Shown: positions 39,580 to 43,099, numbered from the stretch's first letter. The stretch: DNA of 64,000 nucleotides from Escherichia phage P896 (OL451225.1); one strand, 5' to 3'. A program made the numbers and translations. Notes: a model not told the origin generated them from the letters alone.

Positions 39580-41121
39580 TTATTTTAATCCAGTCTTTGA
39601 CCAGTCGCCAAATACATCTTCGAATGTGTCTGCATGGTCTTTATCGAAACGGAACCCTTTGATAATCGGCAGGAACAATGCAACCGTATTATCTTTACGA
39701 GTCTCGGAAGTCAACCAACCATTACATTCACAGTCGGCAATCATTCCAACCAATTCGCCTTTACGGGCTTTAACCATCAAGGCTTCACGGTCCATTTCAT
39801 GACGCTCCTCAATCGGAATAGTAACCCATTTTTTGGTTTTCTTATCTTTAACTTGAGTTGTGTCTTTAAAACCAGAACCACAGTTATTTGTAATCTTACC
39901 ACAAGAAGAACGAAGCACAACACCACCAATCTTATTCGGGTCTTTATCGTGCTCGTAATATCCAATGATTTCCATTGCGATGTCAATTACTTCTTTGAAC
40001 TTGTACAAGTTCTTTGAGCGCTTGTTTTCCCAAATCGATGCCATGTTCTTAAGGATAATACCTTCAAGACCTTCATCCACATATTTCTTATAGATAACCT
40101 TCGCTTCATCGAGATTGTTAACAACATGGTTTTCAATCAGAATCATGCGGTCAAAACCATGCAGCACCACGTTATCTGCAATCATCTTTTCCAGAACAGC
40201 AAAACGCACATCGTATTTTAACGGATTGAGTATCTTAACATCAGAATAGACTTCAATCAATGGAACATAATCCCAAACCTGGAATTTCATGCAAGAAGCT
40301 TCTGCTGCAGAAATAGTTCCTTTCAATGATTTGTTTGCCAGACCATTTGAAAAGGTTCTTGATTCCGCGAATTCTGCGAATTCTTTTGCCTTACTAAGCT
40401 CAGGCATATCGTCAAAAAGGAAGCTCAAACCATCATTCTGGGGAGCTATTTTCTGTTCATGATATACTAACTCGCCGTCAATCAAAACGCCCTCAGGATG
40501 TCTCTCACGCGCTTCACGGGTAGCTTCAATCAATTCCTTTTTAAGGAGGTCAAGCTTGAGGTATTCGTTGCCAGCTCGGGATAACAATCGAACATCATCC
40601 AACTCATCGCCACGAACTTCTGCAAAACACCGAGCGCCGTCGGCTTTCAATTGTGCAAAGGCCGGGAACTTAATGTTCTTGGCAATACCGGCTTCATCAT
40701 AGGAAGAAGCGAGCATCTGCGGTTGTTCAGGAATTAAACCTTTCCAAACCTTATTTGCAATTGATACGGATGCCCCGCATTCCAGGTCACGCATCATAAC
40801 ACGCCGCAGGACTTCAACATCTGCTTTTTTACCATCAGCAATATAGCCAGATAATTCCTCGATTGCAGCATTACCTGTTAATTTACGAGAGGCTAATGTG
40901 AATTCAATAAAGTCAAGCATATCATCGATATTCAGCATACCAAAGCTTTGAGTCGTTGTCCCAGGTTTTGGCCATTTCTTAATATAGAACTGGATGCCTT
41001 TGGAATATGTCAAACGATACACACGTTTGAGGGTTTCATTGTCAGAATACGATTCCAGAATAGCTTGTTTCTCTTTAGTAGAATCGGTTGCAGCAATTTC
41101 ATTTAAAATATCTAAAATCAT
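39580..41121 (-). CDS. 30: ATP-dependent DNA ligase gp30
   Basis: 513 aa; MILDILNEIAATDSTKEKQAILE...; adenylylation motif KADGAR. Confidence 0.95.
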   Translation of the reverse strand: MILDILNEIAATDSTKEKQAILESYSDNETLKRVYRLTYSKGIQFYIKKWPKPGTTTQSFGMLNIDDMLDFIEFTLASRKLTGNAAIEELSGYIADGKKADVEVLRRVMMRDLECGASVSIANKVWKGLIPEQPQMLASSYDEAGIAKNIKFPAFAQLKADGARCFAEVRGDELDDVRLLSRAGNEYLKLDLLKKELIEATREARERHPEGVLIDGELVYHEQKIAPQNDGLSFLFDDMPELSKAKEFAEFAESRTFSNGLANKSLKGTISAAEASCMKFQVWDYVPLIEVYSDVKILNPLKYDVRFAVLEKMIADNVVLHGFDRMILIENHVVNNLDEAKVIYKKYVDEGLEGIILKNMASIWENKRSKNLYKFKEVIDIAMEIIGYYEHDKDPNKIGGVVLRSSCGKITNNCGSGFKDTTQVKDKKTKKWVTIPIEERHEMDREALMVKARKGELVGMIADCECNGWLTSETRKDNTVALFLPIIKGFRFDKDHADTFEDVFGDWSKTGLK

Positions 41122-41396
41122 TTAATATCTCTTCTGGTCATAAAGATTCTATTATAAGCTACTTCATCTTGAAGCTCATTTAAAGTCTTTTGATATGTAT
41201 TAATCCAACGTCTACCACGAGAGGTTGTTACAAAATACTCGGAGATGTAAATAAATCCTTGTTCAACACATTCCATGAATATTTTTTCATATCTAGCTTG
41301 GTTGTATAAAGGCTTTGCTCGTAAGAACTGTGTCACATTCCCGTAATCATGGGTAGAACATCTTCCGTCTGAAATATCATGAACGACAAACATCAA
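41118..41396 (-). CDS. hypothetical protein (30.1 position)
   Basis: 92-aa ORF, ATGA-coupled to the ligase gene. Confidence 0.6.
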   Translation of the reverse strand: MMFVVHDISDGRCSTHDYGNVTQFLRAKPLYNQARYEKIFMECVEQGFIYISEYFVTTSRGRRWINTYQKTLNELQDEVAYNRIFMTRRDIK

Positions 41397-42217
41397 TTAC
41401 CCCCTTGGCCACCGGTCGGTTGGTTGTACCAATATTCAATGCCAGTACCTACGCGTGGACCATATTGATATGGATATGCTGGATTATAACCAGGAGTCCA
41501 TGGTTGACCTGGTTGCCAGCCTTGTTGCATTTGTTGTTGAAGACGGCGAGTTTCACGAAACAGCTCTTCCAGTTTACGGAGTTCATCAGGGGTGAATTCT
41601 GGTTTGACTGGTTCATCTTTGTGTTTCAGTTTAAGCTGCCCAGCTACATCGTCCCAATTAAAAACTTTGGAAGCTGTTTTAGGAATAGCATCACGTTCAC
41701 CACGAGCCATCCAATAAACCGGAATCTCAAGGATTTCACTCGCATGGTCGCAATGGTGTGCAAGGTCATCAATATAACAAACGACATTATATTTGGTCTT
41801 CGCCTTCTGGAATAACTCTTCTTTAGAAGCTGTATGGCCGCACATCATCACTTCTTTAAATGCACCAGGGAACAAAGCATTCAGGTTGAATTGACGATTC
41901 AGACGGGCGTCAATGGAATCACCCAGAGCCGTAACAGCCACAAAATCATATTGCTCTTTGAGGTTATTAATAACCCTTAACGCATCTGCGTAAGGAGACA
42001 AATAGCGAATAAAATCTGAACAGTTATATTTCTCAATCAACTGTGCTCCCAACTCTTCATCACAATTGAACAGTTTACCAGGGGTCACAAATTTTTCATC
42101 CTGAATCATCTTAAGGATATGTTCCAGGGGTAAATTATATTTTTGGGCGAAATAAGGCAAGCCAGACTGCCATGACAAACATACGCCATCAATATCTGTT
42201 AAAATAACGGGTTTCAT
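41393..42217 (-). CDS. HAD-superfamily hydrolase (nucleotidase-like) with Q/P/G/Y-rich C-terminal tail
   Basis: 274 aa; N-terminal ILTDIDGV HAD motif I; C-terminal low-complexity ...QQQMQQGWQPGQPWTPGYNPAYPYQYGP... Confidence 0.7.
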   Translation of the reverse strand: MKPVILTDIDGVCLSWQSGLPYFAQKYNLPLEHILKMIQDEKFVTPGKLFNCDEELGAQLIEKYNCSDFIRYLSPYADALRVINNLKEQYDFVAVTALGDSIDARLNRQFNLNALFPGAFKEVMMCGHTASKEELFQKAKTKYNVVCYIDDLAHHCDHASEILEIPVYWMARGERDAIPKTASKVFNWDDVAGQLKLKHKDEPVKPEFTPDELRKLEELFRETRRLQQQMQQGWQPGQPWTPGYNPAYPYQYGPRVGTGIEYWYNQPTGGQGGN

Positions 42218-42699
42218 AATGCATCTCTCAATTGGTTAAGTATGTCAATAAATTCTTGTTCAGTCAATATTGTATCATGAACAGTAAGGTGACTCGCCAT
42301 CGAATGCTTTAAAACTTTGCCCTTTGTAGCTTGTAATGCGTCGCGGAATCCTTTGTTTTGGAGCGCTGCTTCAAAATAAGCATTTGTATACAACTCTTTC
42401 CATGATGTAGAGTATCTTGAAAAGGGAATTCCAAGCCAGAAAAGCGTCCCACGGTCCGCAGCTCTCGCATAAGCTCTTCCACTTTGCTGGGCGGCCAGGC
42501 CGGACATCCCAAATATACGTTTTTGTTGTTCATGATTTCTCACCTTACACCCTTGCAGGAAGCCTTCAAGACCTCCAAACTGGATGCCCTCCATAACAAA
42601 AGGCCATTTAGCAAAGTTACTTAATGCACATGATGGCCATGGGAAATTGCTTCTGATTTCTAACTCAGACATCTTTGACACTGATAATCTTGGTTGCAT
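42214..42699 (-). CDS. NADAR / YbiA-like (DUF1768) domain protein
   Basis: 161-aa ORF (start may be at MSELEIR, 42672); ...SNFAKWPF...EGFLQGCK... matches the YbiA pattern xSNFAxWP...EHYFQAQKF. Confidence 0.65.
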   Translation of the reverse strand: MQPRLSVSKMSELEIRSNFPWPSCALSNFAKWPFVMEGIQFGGLEGFLQGCKVRNHEQQKRIFGMSGLAAQQSGRAYARAADRGTLFWLGIPFSRYSTSWKELYTNAYFEAALQNKGFRDALQATKGKVLKHSMASHLTVHDTILTEQEFIDILNQLRDAL

Positions 42700-42877
42700 A
42701 CCACATACCGTGGTCCGGTAATCTGGATTTAATTGACCGCCCGCGATATGTTTTTCGCATTACAACAGTCTTAATAGCATCTTCATCACAAGCATATGGA
42801 GGTGATAAATCAATAACACGATAAGTAACTTCAACCATTTCCAAGCCAAACAGCTTTTTAAATAATTTCTTAATCAT
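42665..42877 (-). CDS. small hypothetical protein, tandem paralog A
   Basis: 70 aa; ...EMVEVTYRV.D.SP...IISVKD shared with the neighbouring ORF. Confidence 0.6.
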   Translation of the reverse strand: MIKKLFKKLFGLEMVEVTYRVIDLSPPYACDEDAIKTVVMRKTYRGRSIKSRLPDHGMWYATKIISVKDV

Positions 42878-42886
42878 GAAGGTTCC

Positions 42887-43099
42887 TTAAATATCTTTGA
42901 CGCTGATAATATATACATCAGCCCAATGACCATAACCAGGTAGACGGTCTTTAATAGATAATCCACCGTCAGATTTCAGCATTTTAATTGTTTTAGTATA
43001 TGGTTCAATATTTCGGGCCCATGGACTCACGTCAGTTACGCGATAAGTAACTTCAACCATTTCTGTTCCCAAAATTTTCTGAATCAGTTTCTTAAACAT
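42887..43099 (-). CDS. small hypothetical protein, tandem paralog B
   Basis: 70 aa; paralogous to 42665-42877. Confidence 0.6.
   Translation of the reverse strand: MFKKLIQKILGTEMVEVTYRVTDVSPWARNIEPYTKTIKMLKSDGGLSIKDRLPGYGHWADVYIISVKDI

What the first reader, a model, noticed from the sequence alone, without database searches (positions are those of the whole stretch)
41393..42217. HAD-type hydrolase with a Q/P/G/Y-rich low-complexity C-terminal tail
The N-terminal domain has the HAD motif I (ILTDIDGV) typical of nucleotidases and phosphatases, but the last 60 or so residues are a coiled-coil-like stretch followed by a glutamine/proline/tyrosine/glycine-rich low-complexity tail. Such a tail is unusual on a small phage enzyme and could mediate assembly, condensate formation or recruitment.
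Basis: seen in the sequence. Interest (0 to 1): 0.35.

Follow-up and report, generated by a model that had tools for sequence, protein, structure and literature searches.

The report
T4 gp30.2 phosphatase with docking tail
This is the SP18-type phage's copy of the uncharacterised T4 gene 30.2: a small phosphatase whose real, selected C-terminal tail is a helix, a floppy Trp/Pro/Tyr-rich linker and a short conserved motif that probably tethers the enzyme to an unknown partner.

Summary
A 274-aa ORF on the minus strand (41393..42217) has a HAD motif I. Its last 45 residues are the most Q/P/G/Y/W/N-rich stretch in any ORF of at least 80 aa in the window (80% against 51% for the next).

It is the orthologue of T4 gene 30.2 in a Gaprivervirus (SP18/VR7-like). 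The gene sits in a chain of overlapping start and stop codons: 30.3 (AdfN), 30.2, 30.1, DNA ligase.

All four HAD motifs are invariant in 80 homologues. The AlphaFold model is closest to 5'(3')-deoxyribonucleotidases, although Pfam thresholds are not reached.

The tail is not an artefact. Its pN/pS is 0.09, all four indels are in frame, and T4 has a tail too. It is also not plain low complexity. It has three parts:
- an amphipathic helix (210-233);
- a disordered linker (234-255);
- an invariant motif, VGTGIEYWYNQPT (256-268), shared with T4 and with Klebsiella, Citrobacter and Cronobacter phages and found only on gp30.2.

Half of the homologue clusters have no tail, and others carry unrelated W/P-rich tails.

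Best reading: a nucleotide-type phosphatase carrying a fast-evolving tether and docking peptide. Partner and substrate are unknown. Interest is modest.

The parts
41393..42217 (-). gp30.2 orthologue, 274 aa plus stop codon (41393-41395)
   Evidence: ORF. PHROG 420, E 1e-78. 99.6% identical to Escherichia virus TH44, 96.7% to VR7 gene 30.2 and about 67% to RB14/T4-type 30.2. Same position as the SP18 and T4 gene 30.2.
41621..42217 (-). HAD phosphatase core with helical cap, residues 1-199
   Evidence: AlphaFold pLDDT above 90 over nearly all of 1-199. Foldseek top PDB hits are mouse and human 5'(3')-deoxyribonucleotidases (2jao E 2.7e-8, TM 0.65; 3bwv TM 0.70).
42182..42205 (-). HAD motif I, ILTDIDGV (D8 nucleophile, D10 acid/base)
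   Evidence: D8 and D10 are invariant in 80 homologues. Coordinates.
41957..42178 (-). All-helical cap inserted between motifs I and II (residues 14-87), including invariant W16
   Evidence: DSSP helices at 16-26, 32-40, 46-49, 54-65, 68-72 and 77-86. W16 is invariant and aligns with the Phe six residues after the second Asp in cytosolic deoxyribonucleotidase 2jao.
41921..41947 (-). HAD motif II (DFVAVTALG, T96)
   Evidence: T96 is at least 90% conserved and A97 is invariant. It lies on strand 91-96 of the model.
41816..41830 (-). HAD motif III lysine (K132)
   Evidence: Invariant in 80 homologues.
41762..41782 (-). HAD motif IV (VCYIDDL, D150 and D151)
   Evidence: D150 and D151 are invariant. 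They lie on strand 145-150 of the model.
41591..41620 (-). Pro/Lys-rich connector, residues 200-209 (KDEPVKPEFT)
   Evidence: pLDDT falls to about 74-85 and no secondary structure is assigned.
41519..41590 (-).
   Evidence: Helix 210-233 with pLDDT about 94 using the deep alignment, and helix 210-232 with the shallow alignment. Other tail classes have a helix-like segment at the same place. About three heptads, too short for a long coiled coil.
41453..41518 (-). Disordered W/P/Y/Q/G-rich linker, residues 234-255
   Evidence: pLDDT below 55 in both models. This is where the in-frame indels among close relatives lie: an 8-aa duplication YNPAYPYQ in phage 212, a 3-aa deletion in PSD2001 and a 2-aa deletion in L014.
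41414..41452 (-). Conserved short linear motif VGTGIEYWYNQPT, residues 256-268
   Evidence: E261 is invariant; Y262, P267 and T268 are at least 90% conserved in 19 class-1 proteins from several genera. Unchanged in all 8 Gaprivervirus genes. In IMG/VR the back-translated motif occurs 9 times, always at the C-terminus of a gp30.2 homologue. Predicted as a single helical turn, 261-264, at low confidence.
41396..41413 (-). Variable extreme C-terminus (GGQGGN)
   Evidence: Varies even within the genus: GGQGGN, GGRG, CGRG. It is SGDNIFQGAF-type in T4-like phages.

Best explanation
The ORF is the Gaprivervirus orthologue of T4 gene 30.2.

Residues 1-199 form a Mg-dependent phosphomonoesterase of the HAD superfamily. 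It has an all-helical cap of the kind seen in 5'(3')-deoxyribonucleotidases, so its substrate is most likely a small nucleotide-like phosphate ester (inferred).

Residues 200-274 are an accessory module found in about half of the family. It consists of an amphipathic helix, a roughly 20-residue intrinsically disordered Trp/Pro/Tyr-rich spacer that tolerates in-frame expansion and contraction, and a strictly conserved motif (G-T-G-I-E-Y-[LW]-x-x-Q-P-T) a few residues from the C-terminus.

I infer that the motif is a short linear docking peptide that becomes ordered only on binding. The spacer would then act as a flexible leash, and the tail would tether the phosphatase to a partner. The partner could be a phage or host macromolecule, or another gp30.2 subunit. 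This would be recruitment, not bulk condensation.

Shown: gene identity, HAD catalytic motifs and fold, tail under purifying selection, motif conservation, and predicted disorder.
Inferred: the substrate class, and docking as the tail's role.
Unknown: the partner.
For: Identity and context:
- PHROG 420, E 1e-78.
- Synteny with SP18 and T4: alt, 30, 30.1, 30.2, 30.3.
- ATGA and TGATG start/stop overlaps with both neighbours.

Enzyme:
- D8, D10, A97 (T96 at least 90%), K132, D150 and D151 are invariant in 80 homologues.
- Core pLDDT is above 90.
- Top solved-structure matches are cytosolic and mitochondrial 5'(3')-deoxyribonucleotidases and other capped HAD phosphatases, probability 1.00, target-normalised TM 0.65-0.70.
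- Viral matches annotated as 5' nucleotidases.
- Sub-threshold Pfam hits to Hydrolase, NT5C and HAD_2 in 11-16 of 80 members.

The tail is real and selected:
- pN/pS is 0.092 for the tail against 0.038 for the core among 8 Gaprivervirus genes.
- All four indels are in frame.
- 868 of 1439 phage records align over at least 80% of the query, T4-type phages among them.

Motif:
- The class-1 alignment of 15-19 proteins from Escherichia, Klebsiella, Citrobacter and Cronobacter phages keeps GTGIEY[LW]xxQPT, while the rest of the tail averages about 30% column identity.
- The motif occurs only in gp30.2 genes, both in 50,697 phage genomes by tblastn and in IMG/VR by DNA pattern.

Disorder:
- Residues 234-274 have pLDDT below 55 in two independent runs, with only a one-turn helix at IEYW.
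Against: - No partner was identified, and no binding or oligomerisation could be computed because only monomer prediction was available.
- Tail presence does not track the presence of either translationally coupled neighbour, gp30.1 or gp30.3, so the obvious candidate partners are not supported.
- Half of the family works without any tail, so the tail is dispensable for catalysis and possibly for the core function.
- Low pLDDT is only a proxy for disorder.
- The nucleotidase assignment rests on fold and motif similarity at 13-18% identity. Pfam NT5C is not reached at its curated threshold.
- The two large profile searches with the tail failed to recover known members that score 64-104 bits locally. 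They give no usable evidence on whether the tail is unique to gp30.2.
Confidence: 0.5

Rival explanations
1. The tail is a prion-like, aromatic-rich low-complexity domain that drives self-association or condensate formation, concentrating the enzyme.
For: In this genus the last 45 residues are 80% Q/P/G/Y/W/N, far above any other ORF in the window. Nine aromatic residues are spaced through a Gly/Pro/Gln background. The region is predicted disordered. The linker gains and loses short repeats, as low-complexity domains do.
Against: The Q/G/Y bias is not conserved. Family-wide, tails are enriched only in W (2.9x), P (2.5x) and T (2.1x), while Y and G are not enriched. The T4 and Klebsiella-phage tails are not Q/G-rich. 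What selection keeps is a specific 12-13-residue motif, which composition-driven phase separation does not need. The disordered part is only about 40 residues, short for a condensate driver (established knowledge, not tested here).
Confidence: 0.15
2. The tail acts within the enzyme or its own oligomer. The helix and motif fold back on the cap or active site as a regulatory lid or pseudo-substrate, or swap between subunits to build a dimer or tetramer.
For: Helix 210-233 is predicted with pLDDT about 94 when a deep alignment is used, consistent with packing against the core. The helix is present in all tail classes. HAD nucleotidases are typically oligomers (established knowledge).
Against: Neither monomer model places residues 234-274 with confidence. 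Tail-less family members keep the same invariant core residues, so the core does not need the tail. Unrelated tail classes sit on nearly the same core, with class-1 and class-3 tails at hhalign probability 1.6% while cores are about 60% identical. That is hard to reconcile with a co-evolved intramolecular interface.
Confidence: 0.2
3. The tail is an annotation or sequence artefact: a read-through, a frameshift, or conservation imposed by an overlapping gene on the other strand.
For: A mechanical 136-aa ORF lies antisense at 41405..41815. The sequence is compositionally odd.
Against: pN/pS is 0.09 in the reading frame of gp30.2. Four indels among eight relatives are all multiples of three. The tail with the same motif is present in T4, in Klebsiella, Citrobacter and Cronobacter phages, and in IMG/VR contigs. 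The antisense ORF has no PHROG match. The stop codon overlaps the start of gp30.1, as it does in SP18 and T4.
Confidence: 0.01

Closest known systems
Bacteriophage T4 gp30.2 (AAD42442.1, 'conserved hypothetical protein'; PHROG 420)
   Same: Orthologue. About 67% identity over 270 of 274 residues to T4-type 30.2. Same position between 30.3 and 30.1/ligase. Same architecture: core, helix, W/P-rich spacer, then GG[IV]EYLYNRPT.
   Different: The spacer in this genus is Q/G/Y-rich (QQGWQPGQPWTPGYNPAYPYQYGP), where T4 has an N/H/T/F-rich one. The extreme C-terminus is GGQGGN against CGDNIFQGAF in T4. No function is published for either in the library searched.
5'(3')-deoxyribonucleotidases cdN/mdN (Pfam NT5C, PF06941; PDB 2jao, 2i7d, 1q92, 3bwv)
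   Same: Best structural matches. DxDGV motif I with the acid/base Asp at +2, a helical cap between motifs I and II, a lysine at motif III and DD at motif IV. An aromatic residue (W16) aligns with the Phe six residues after the second Asp.
   Different: Only 15-18% identity. Sequence searches are insignificant (E 0.29-0.57). The Pfam NT5C threshold is not reached. Those enzymes are about 200 aa and have no such C-terminal extension. Activity and substrate of gp30.2 are untested.
Phage dNMP phosphatases such as the PBS1-type dTMP phosphatase Dtm (PMC12697855)
   Same: A phage-encoded, deoxyribonucleotidase-like HAD enzyme recognised only by its predicted fold, at about 16% identity to the human mitochondrial enzyme. 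It shows that phages use this fold to reshape dNMP pools.
   Different: Dtm belongs to dU-DNA phages and has a defined role. gp30.2 occurs in many T4-like lineages, and no link to DNA modification was seen here. No direct comparison with Dtm was run, and no tail is reported for it.
Enzymes tethered by a disordered linker plus a short C-terminal docking peptide (for example the E. coli SSB Gly/Gln/Pro-rich linker and acidic tip; from memory, not tested)
   Same: The same logic of a folded domain, then a G/Q/P-rich disordered linker of variable length, then a short conserved terminal peptide. The linker composition in this genus (GWQPGQPW) resembles the SSB linker.
   Different: No sequence homology was tested or claimed. 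The terminal peptide here is neutral and aromatic (GTGIEYWYNQPT), not acidic, and its binding partner is unknown.

Membership tests
HAD (haloacid dehalogenase-like) phosphatase superfamily | Motif I DxDx[TV], with a nucleophile Asp and an acid/base Asp at +2 | tested here: met
   D8-I-D10-G-V; D8 and D10 are invariant in 80 homologues.
HAD (haloacid dehalogenase-like) phosphatase superfamily | Motif II Ser/Thr, motif III Lys, motif IV acidic pair (DD) | tested here: met
   T96 (at least 90%) and A97, K132, D150 and D151 are invariant. They sit at the ends of strands 91-96 and 145-150 of the model.
HAD (haloacid dehalogenase-like) phosphatase superfamily | Rossmann-like alpha/beta core fold | tested here: met
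   106 PDB matches at E <= 0.001, and every one of the top 50 listed is a HAD-fold protein or an enzyme engineered on one (probability 1.00).
HAD (haloacid dehalogenase-like) phosphatase superfamily | Match to curated sequence models (Pfam Hydrolase / HAD_2) above the gathering score | tested here: not met
   No Pfam hit at E <= 0.01. HAD_2 scores 14.2 bits against a cut-off of 23.8. No NCBIfam hit. The family is too divergent for these models, so membership rests on motifs and fold.
5'(3')-deoxyribonucleotidase family (Pfam NT5C, PF06941) | Sequence match above the Pfam gathering score | tested here: not met
   No hit for the window protein. 15 of 80 relatives give sub-threshold hits, best E 0.0029.
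5'(3')-deoxyribonucleotidase family (Pfam NT5C, PF06941) | Helical cap inserted directly after motif I, closing over a small-molecule site | tested here: met
   Six helices between residues 16 and 86. The top Foldseek hit is cdN 2jao, with 3bwv, 2i7d, 4yih, 1q92 and 4mum also listed.
5'(3')-deoxyribonucleotidase family (Pfam NT5C, PF06941) | Aromatic base-stacking residues in the cap | tested here: inconclusive
   Invariant W16 aligns with the Phe of DGVLADF in 2jao. The other specificity residues were not mapped.
5'(3')-deoxyribonucleotidase family (Pfam NT5C, PF06941) | dNMP phosphatase activity | not testable with these tools
   Needs an enzyme assay.
T4 gp30.2 family (PHROG 420) | Full-length profile match and conserved position next to DNA ligase | tested here: met
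   PHROG 420, E 1e-78, residues 1-268. Synteny in SP18, T4 and Klebsiella, Erwinia, Citrobacter and Acinetobacter phages.
Prion-like / low-complexity condensate-forming domain | Compositional bias (Q/N/G/Y/S) conserved across orthologues, with little position-specific conservation | tested here: not met
   The bias is present here but is not conserved. Family tails are enriched only in W, P and T, and a position-specific motif is conserved.
Coiled coil | Long heptad-repeat helix (at least 4-5 heptads) that mediates oligomerisation | tested here: inconclusive
   A single 24-residue amphipathic helix, about three heptads. Oligomerisation could not be computed.

The most novel reading that the evidence does not exclude
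The gp30.2 tails could be interchangeable, fast-evolving targeting modules. At least three mutually unrelated W/P-rich classes exist, along with tail-less forms, a different C-terminal region of about 115-130 residues (phiR1-RT type) and a fusion to gp30.1. On this reading they direct one conserved nucleotide phosphatase to lineage-specific partners, as part of the counter-defence island that also holds Alt and the anti-DarT NADAR AdfN (gp30.3). The tail would then be an arms-race interface, for example docking onto a host defence or DNA-metabolism protein, and the class-1 motif GTGIEY[LW]xxQPT would be a new docking peptide of T-even phages.
Probability: 0.12. Interest if true: 0.6.

Novelty: new variant of a known kind. 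Interest (0 to 1): 0.3.

Why it matters
Gene 30.2 is one of the many T4 early genes that remain 'conserved hypothetical' after decades. It lies, with overlapping start and stop codons, between a proven counter-defence gene (30.3/AdfN) and the DNA ligase gene.

This work shows that it is a capped HAD phosphatase with a selected, modular tail that ends in a defined motif. That turns a vague ORF into a testable object. The motif gives a precise handle (point mutants, peptide pull-downs) for finding what the enzyme is tethered to. The tail-less and tail-swapped natural variants provide ready controls.

The practical value is modest unless the partner turns out to be a defence or replication factor.

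Tried and rejected
1. Artefact, read-through or antisense-gene explanation. Rejected on pN/pS, in-frame indels and cross-genus conservation.

2. The tail occurs on other proteins.
- tblastn of the tail against 50,697 phage genomes found only gp30.2 genes, plus one chance hit at E=9.
- A degenerate DNA pattern for the motif in IMG/VR gave 9 hits, all gp30.2.
- Two large profile searches with the tail alignment returned only two unrelated repeat proteins or nothing. They failed to recover known members that score 64-104 bits locally, so I discard them as uninformative.

3. The tail binds gp30.1 or gp30.3. Not supported. Class-1 tails occur without a recognisable 30.3 upstream or a Pfam-recognised 30.1 downstream, and a nearly tail-less form (17 residues beyond the core) occurs with both.

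4. All tail classes share one terminal motif. By eye, EYLxNRQPTA resembles DYVLLNKVTAND. hhalign between class-1 and class-3 tail alignments gave probability 1.6%. Rejected as unsupported.

5. The phiR1-RT-type C-terminal domain is a gp30.1 fusion. BLASTP E 0.66 and no DUF3045 hit. Rejected. Only P0022 carries DUF3045.

6. A second AlphaFold run with a class-1-only alignment, to see whether the motif docks in cis. The tail stayed below pLDDT 50 and the whole model was worse.

7. DNA tandem repeat in the tail: none in this window.

8. Promoter and terminator scans: no excess over shuffles.

9. Literature: no paper in the library discusses the function of 30.2. The T4 genome review was not held.

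Full report
**1. What is there**

The minus strand of 41393..42217 carries a 274-codon ORF beginning MKPVILTDIDGV. Its ATG overlaps the TGA of the upstream ORF (42214..42699) in an ATGA. Its own TGA overlaps the ATG of the downstream ORF (41118..41396) in a TGATG. That ORF in turn overlaps the start of the 513-aa DNA ligase gene (39580..41121). The four genes therefore form a chain of overlapping starts and stops, which suggests translational coupling.

Pfam identifies the neighbours as Phage_30_3, DUF3045 (gp30.1), an ATP-dependent DNA ligase and an Alt-type ADP-ribosyltransferase.

Megablast places the region in SP18/VR7/VR20-like T-even phages (genus Gaprivervirus) at 94-98% identity. The ORF corresponds to the gene annotated gp30.2 in SP18 and 30.2 in T4. 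It matches PHROG 420 ('unknown function') end to end, E 1e-78.

**2. Check of the observation**

- Motif I is ILTDIDGV at residues 5-12.
- Residues 210-233 are predicted helical.
- Residues 234-274 contain 9 G, 7 P, 6 Y, 5 Q, 3 W and 3 N out of 41.
- The last 45 residues are 80% Q/P/G/Y/W/N. The next most biased 45-aa stretch in any six-frame ORF of at least 80 aa in the window reaches 51%.

The gene is on the minus strand.

**3. The enzyme**

In an alignment of 80 homologues the following are invariant: D8 and D10 (motif I), A97 (with T96 at least 90%, motif II), K132 (motif III), and D150 and D151 (motif IV), together with a family signature around W16-Q-S-G-L-P.

AlphaFold2 with this alignment gives mean pLDDT 87.8, with the core (1-199) almost entirely above 90. 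An all-helical insertion lies between residues 16 and 86.

Foldseek against the PDB returns 106 matches at E <= 0.001, and every one of the top 50 listed is a HAD-fold protein or an enzyme engineered on one. The list is headed by mouse cytosolic 5'(3')-deoxyribonucleotidase (2jao, E 2.7e-8, target TM 0.65). It also includes the S. epidermidis deoxyribonucleotidase-like protein 3bwv (TM 0.70) and human cdN and mdN. Viral predicted structures annotated as 5' nucleotidases also match.

Sequence methods alone barely see this relationship:
- phmmer and hmmsearch against PDB sequences give E 0.29-0.57 to 2jao.
- Pfam and NCBIfam give nothing above threshold.
- 11-16 of the 80 relatives give sub-threshold hits to Hydrolase, NT5C and HAD_2.

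I therefore file it as a HAD phosphatase, since motifs and fold are met. It works like, but is not demonstrably a member of, the NT5C deoxyribonucleotidase family. A capped HAD enzyme implies a small substrate. Invariant W16 aligns with the Phe six residues after the second Asp in cdN, which points to a nucleotide. This last step is inference.

**4. The tail is real**

I compared eight Gaprivervirus genes: the window, SP18, phage 212, PSD2001, Yersinia phage P8 and three IMG/VR contigs.
- pN/pS is 0.092 for the tail (residues 193-274) and 0.038 for the core.
- The four length differences are all in frame: an 8-aa duplication YNPAYPYQ, a 3-aa deletion, a 2-aa deletion and a 2-aa shorter end.
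- T4 gp30.2 (278 aa) has a tail too...WRTPGFNPYNPYHPYQTHPFQTWNYIKPGGIEYLYNRPTCGDNIFQGAF.
- 868 of 1439 phage records align over at least 80% of the query.
- The antisense ORF 41405..41815 has no family match.

The artefact explanation is excluded.

**5. Anatomy of the tail**

In both AlphaFold runs residues 210-232/233 form a helix. Its pLDDT is about 94 with the deep alignment. Residues 234-274 fall below 55, with only a one-turn helix at I-E-Y-W.

Aligning the tails shows that a subset ('class 1': 18 of 116 clusters, from Escherichia, Klebsiella, Citrobacter and Cronobacter phages, T4-type proteins included) shares three elements:
- a helix;
- a W-x-x-P...P element;
- near the end, (Y/F)-G-x-G-T-G-I-E-Y-L-x-x-Q-P-T.

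E261 is invariant, and Y262, P267 and T268 are at least 90% conserved. In the window this motif is VGTGIEYWYNQPT (256-268). It is unchanged in all eight Gaprivervirus genes, whereas the linker before it and the few residues after it vary.

The 'low-complexity tail' is thus a helix, a variable disordered spacer and a conserved short linear motif.

**6. Distribution**

Of 112 usable homologue clusters, 56 have at least 40 residues beyond the core. The other 56 end within 40 residues, most within about 20; they include RB43-like, Acinetobacter, Aeromonas, Salmonella and Shewanella phages.

Tails are enriched in W (2.9x), P (2.5x) and T (2.1x) relative to cores, but not in Q, G or Y. The Q/G/Y flavour is therefore a Gaprivervirus peculiarity.

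Core pairwise identity averages 0.60, against 0.18 for tails.

Other tail classes exist:
- a '...LRAYY...' class;
- a 'WSLQLSLPVV...PMTPCDP...LLNKVxAND' class.

hhalign finds no relationship between the latter and class 1 (probability 1.6%). The phiR1-RT-type proteins carry a different C-terminal region of about 115-130 residues, unrelated to gp30.1. One metagenomic contig encodes a fusion of the core with DUF3045/gp30.1.

**7. Is the tail module used elsewhere?**

- tblastn of the tail against 50,697 phage genomes hits only gp30.2 genes.
- A degenerate DNA pattern for GTGIEYxxxQPT in IMG/VR hits nine contigs of about 170 kb, each time at the C-terminus of a gp30.2 homologue.
- The two large profile searches must be ignored. 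They did not return known members that score 64-104 bits with the same profile locally. The two proteins that one search did return are unrelated repeat proteins.

**8. Context and candidate partners**

gp30.3 is AdfN, the NADAR that reverses DarT1 ADP-ribosylation of DNA. The authors note that it may need another T-even protein (PMC11825919).

gp30.2 is always immediately upstream of [30.1]-ligase-alt. However:
- class-1 tails occur where no Phage_30_3 or DUF3045 gene is recognised next door;
- a nearly tail-less form (17 residues beyond the core) occurs with both;
- a tail-less form sits directly between 30.3 and the ligase gene in an Acinetobacter phage.

Neither neighbour is therefore supported as the tail's partner.

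**9. Mechanism**

Most likely (about 0.5): the tail is a leash plus a docking peptide that recruits a nucleotide-type phosphatase to a partner.

Rivals:
- intramolecular or oligomer-forming regulation (about 0.2);
- composition-driven self-association or condensation (about 0.15);
- artefact (about 0.01).

The conserved motif, the variable spacer and the predicted disorder favour docking. The lack of any identified partner is the main weakness.

**10. Novelty and score**

The gene itself has long been known as an uncharacterised T4 ORF. The fold assignment is ordinary, and some depositors already annotate relatives as hydrolase or 5' nucleotidase.

What I did not find described in the library searched is the modular, rapidly swapped tail with a defined motif restricted to this family. 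This is a new variant of a known kind. It is of modest interest (0.3) unless the partner proves to be a defence or replication factor.

Noticed in passing
window 42214-42699 (-): The upstream gene is gp30.3 (Pfam Phage_30_3, E 7.7e-64), the orthologue of T4 AdfN, the NADAR enzyme that counters the DarTG1 defence system (PMC11825919). The mechanical ORF is 161 aa, against 152 aa annotated in SP18, so the true start is probably an internal ATG. Its stop overlaps the gp30.2 start (ATGA).
   Followed up: partly
window 42665-42877 (-) and 42887-43099 (-): Two tandem 70-aa paralogues, 54% identical, both PHROG 2042 (gp30.4 family). SP18 and many relatives carry one copy, which is why most megablast matches stop at query position about 1689 of 1801. 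This looks like a local gene duplication or insertion in this lineage.
   Followed up: partly
window 39580-42699 (-): Genes 30.3, 30.2, 30.1 and 30 (DNA ligase) are linked by overlapping stop and start codons (ATGA, TGATG, ATGA). This suggests translational coupling of a NADAR, a HAD phosphatase, a DUF3045 protein and the ligase.
   Followed up: partly
L006 234-1142 (Logan SRR21148734 contig, protein P0022): A 302-aa protein fuses the gp30.2 HAD core, without a W/P tail, to a DUF3045 (gp30.1) domain (E 8e-15). It could be a genuine fusion hinting at a functional link between gp30.2 and gp30.1, or a lost stop codon or sequencing error. It is a single 1.4-kb contig.
   Followed up: partly
P0062 / P0064 (Yersinia phage phiR1-RT type, 312-328 aa): These gp30.2 homologues carry a different C-terminal region of about 115-130 residues in place of the W/P-rich tail. 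It has no Pfam match and no similarity to gp30.1.
   Followed up: partly
L002 710-1558 (Escherichia phage 212): A 24-nt in-frame duplication doubles YNPAYPYQ in the linker, giving 282 aa. PSD2001 (L003) lacks three residues of the QQQM stretch. L009 and L014 end two residues earlier, and L014 also lacks two linker residues. The linker is a hotspot for small in-frame indels while the motif stays fixed.
   Followed up: yes
L019 1-130 (Citrobacter phage Miller): An Acb2/Tad1-hairpin family gene (an anti-CBASS/anti-Thoeris sponge fold) lies a few kb upstream of gp30.2 in this RB43-like phage. This adds to the impression that the 30.x region is a counter-defence island.
   Followed up: no
tool behaviour: The tail-only profile searches of the 1.84-billion and 5.8-billion protein libraries did not return any gp30.2 member, although 17 members score 64-104 bits with the same alignment in a local hmmsearch at the same database size. 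The cause is unknown. It may be the choice of cluster representatives or candidate selection.
   Followed up: partly
P0118 (315 aa): A repeat protein with the unit GGGxETWEPQDTGHKVVGTGF weakly matches the tail motif region (E 8e-4, summed over 4 repeats). The pattern G-G-x-E-x-W-x-x-Q-x-T-G resembles GTGIEYWYNQPTG. This is probably chance.
   Followed up: no
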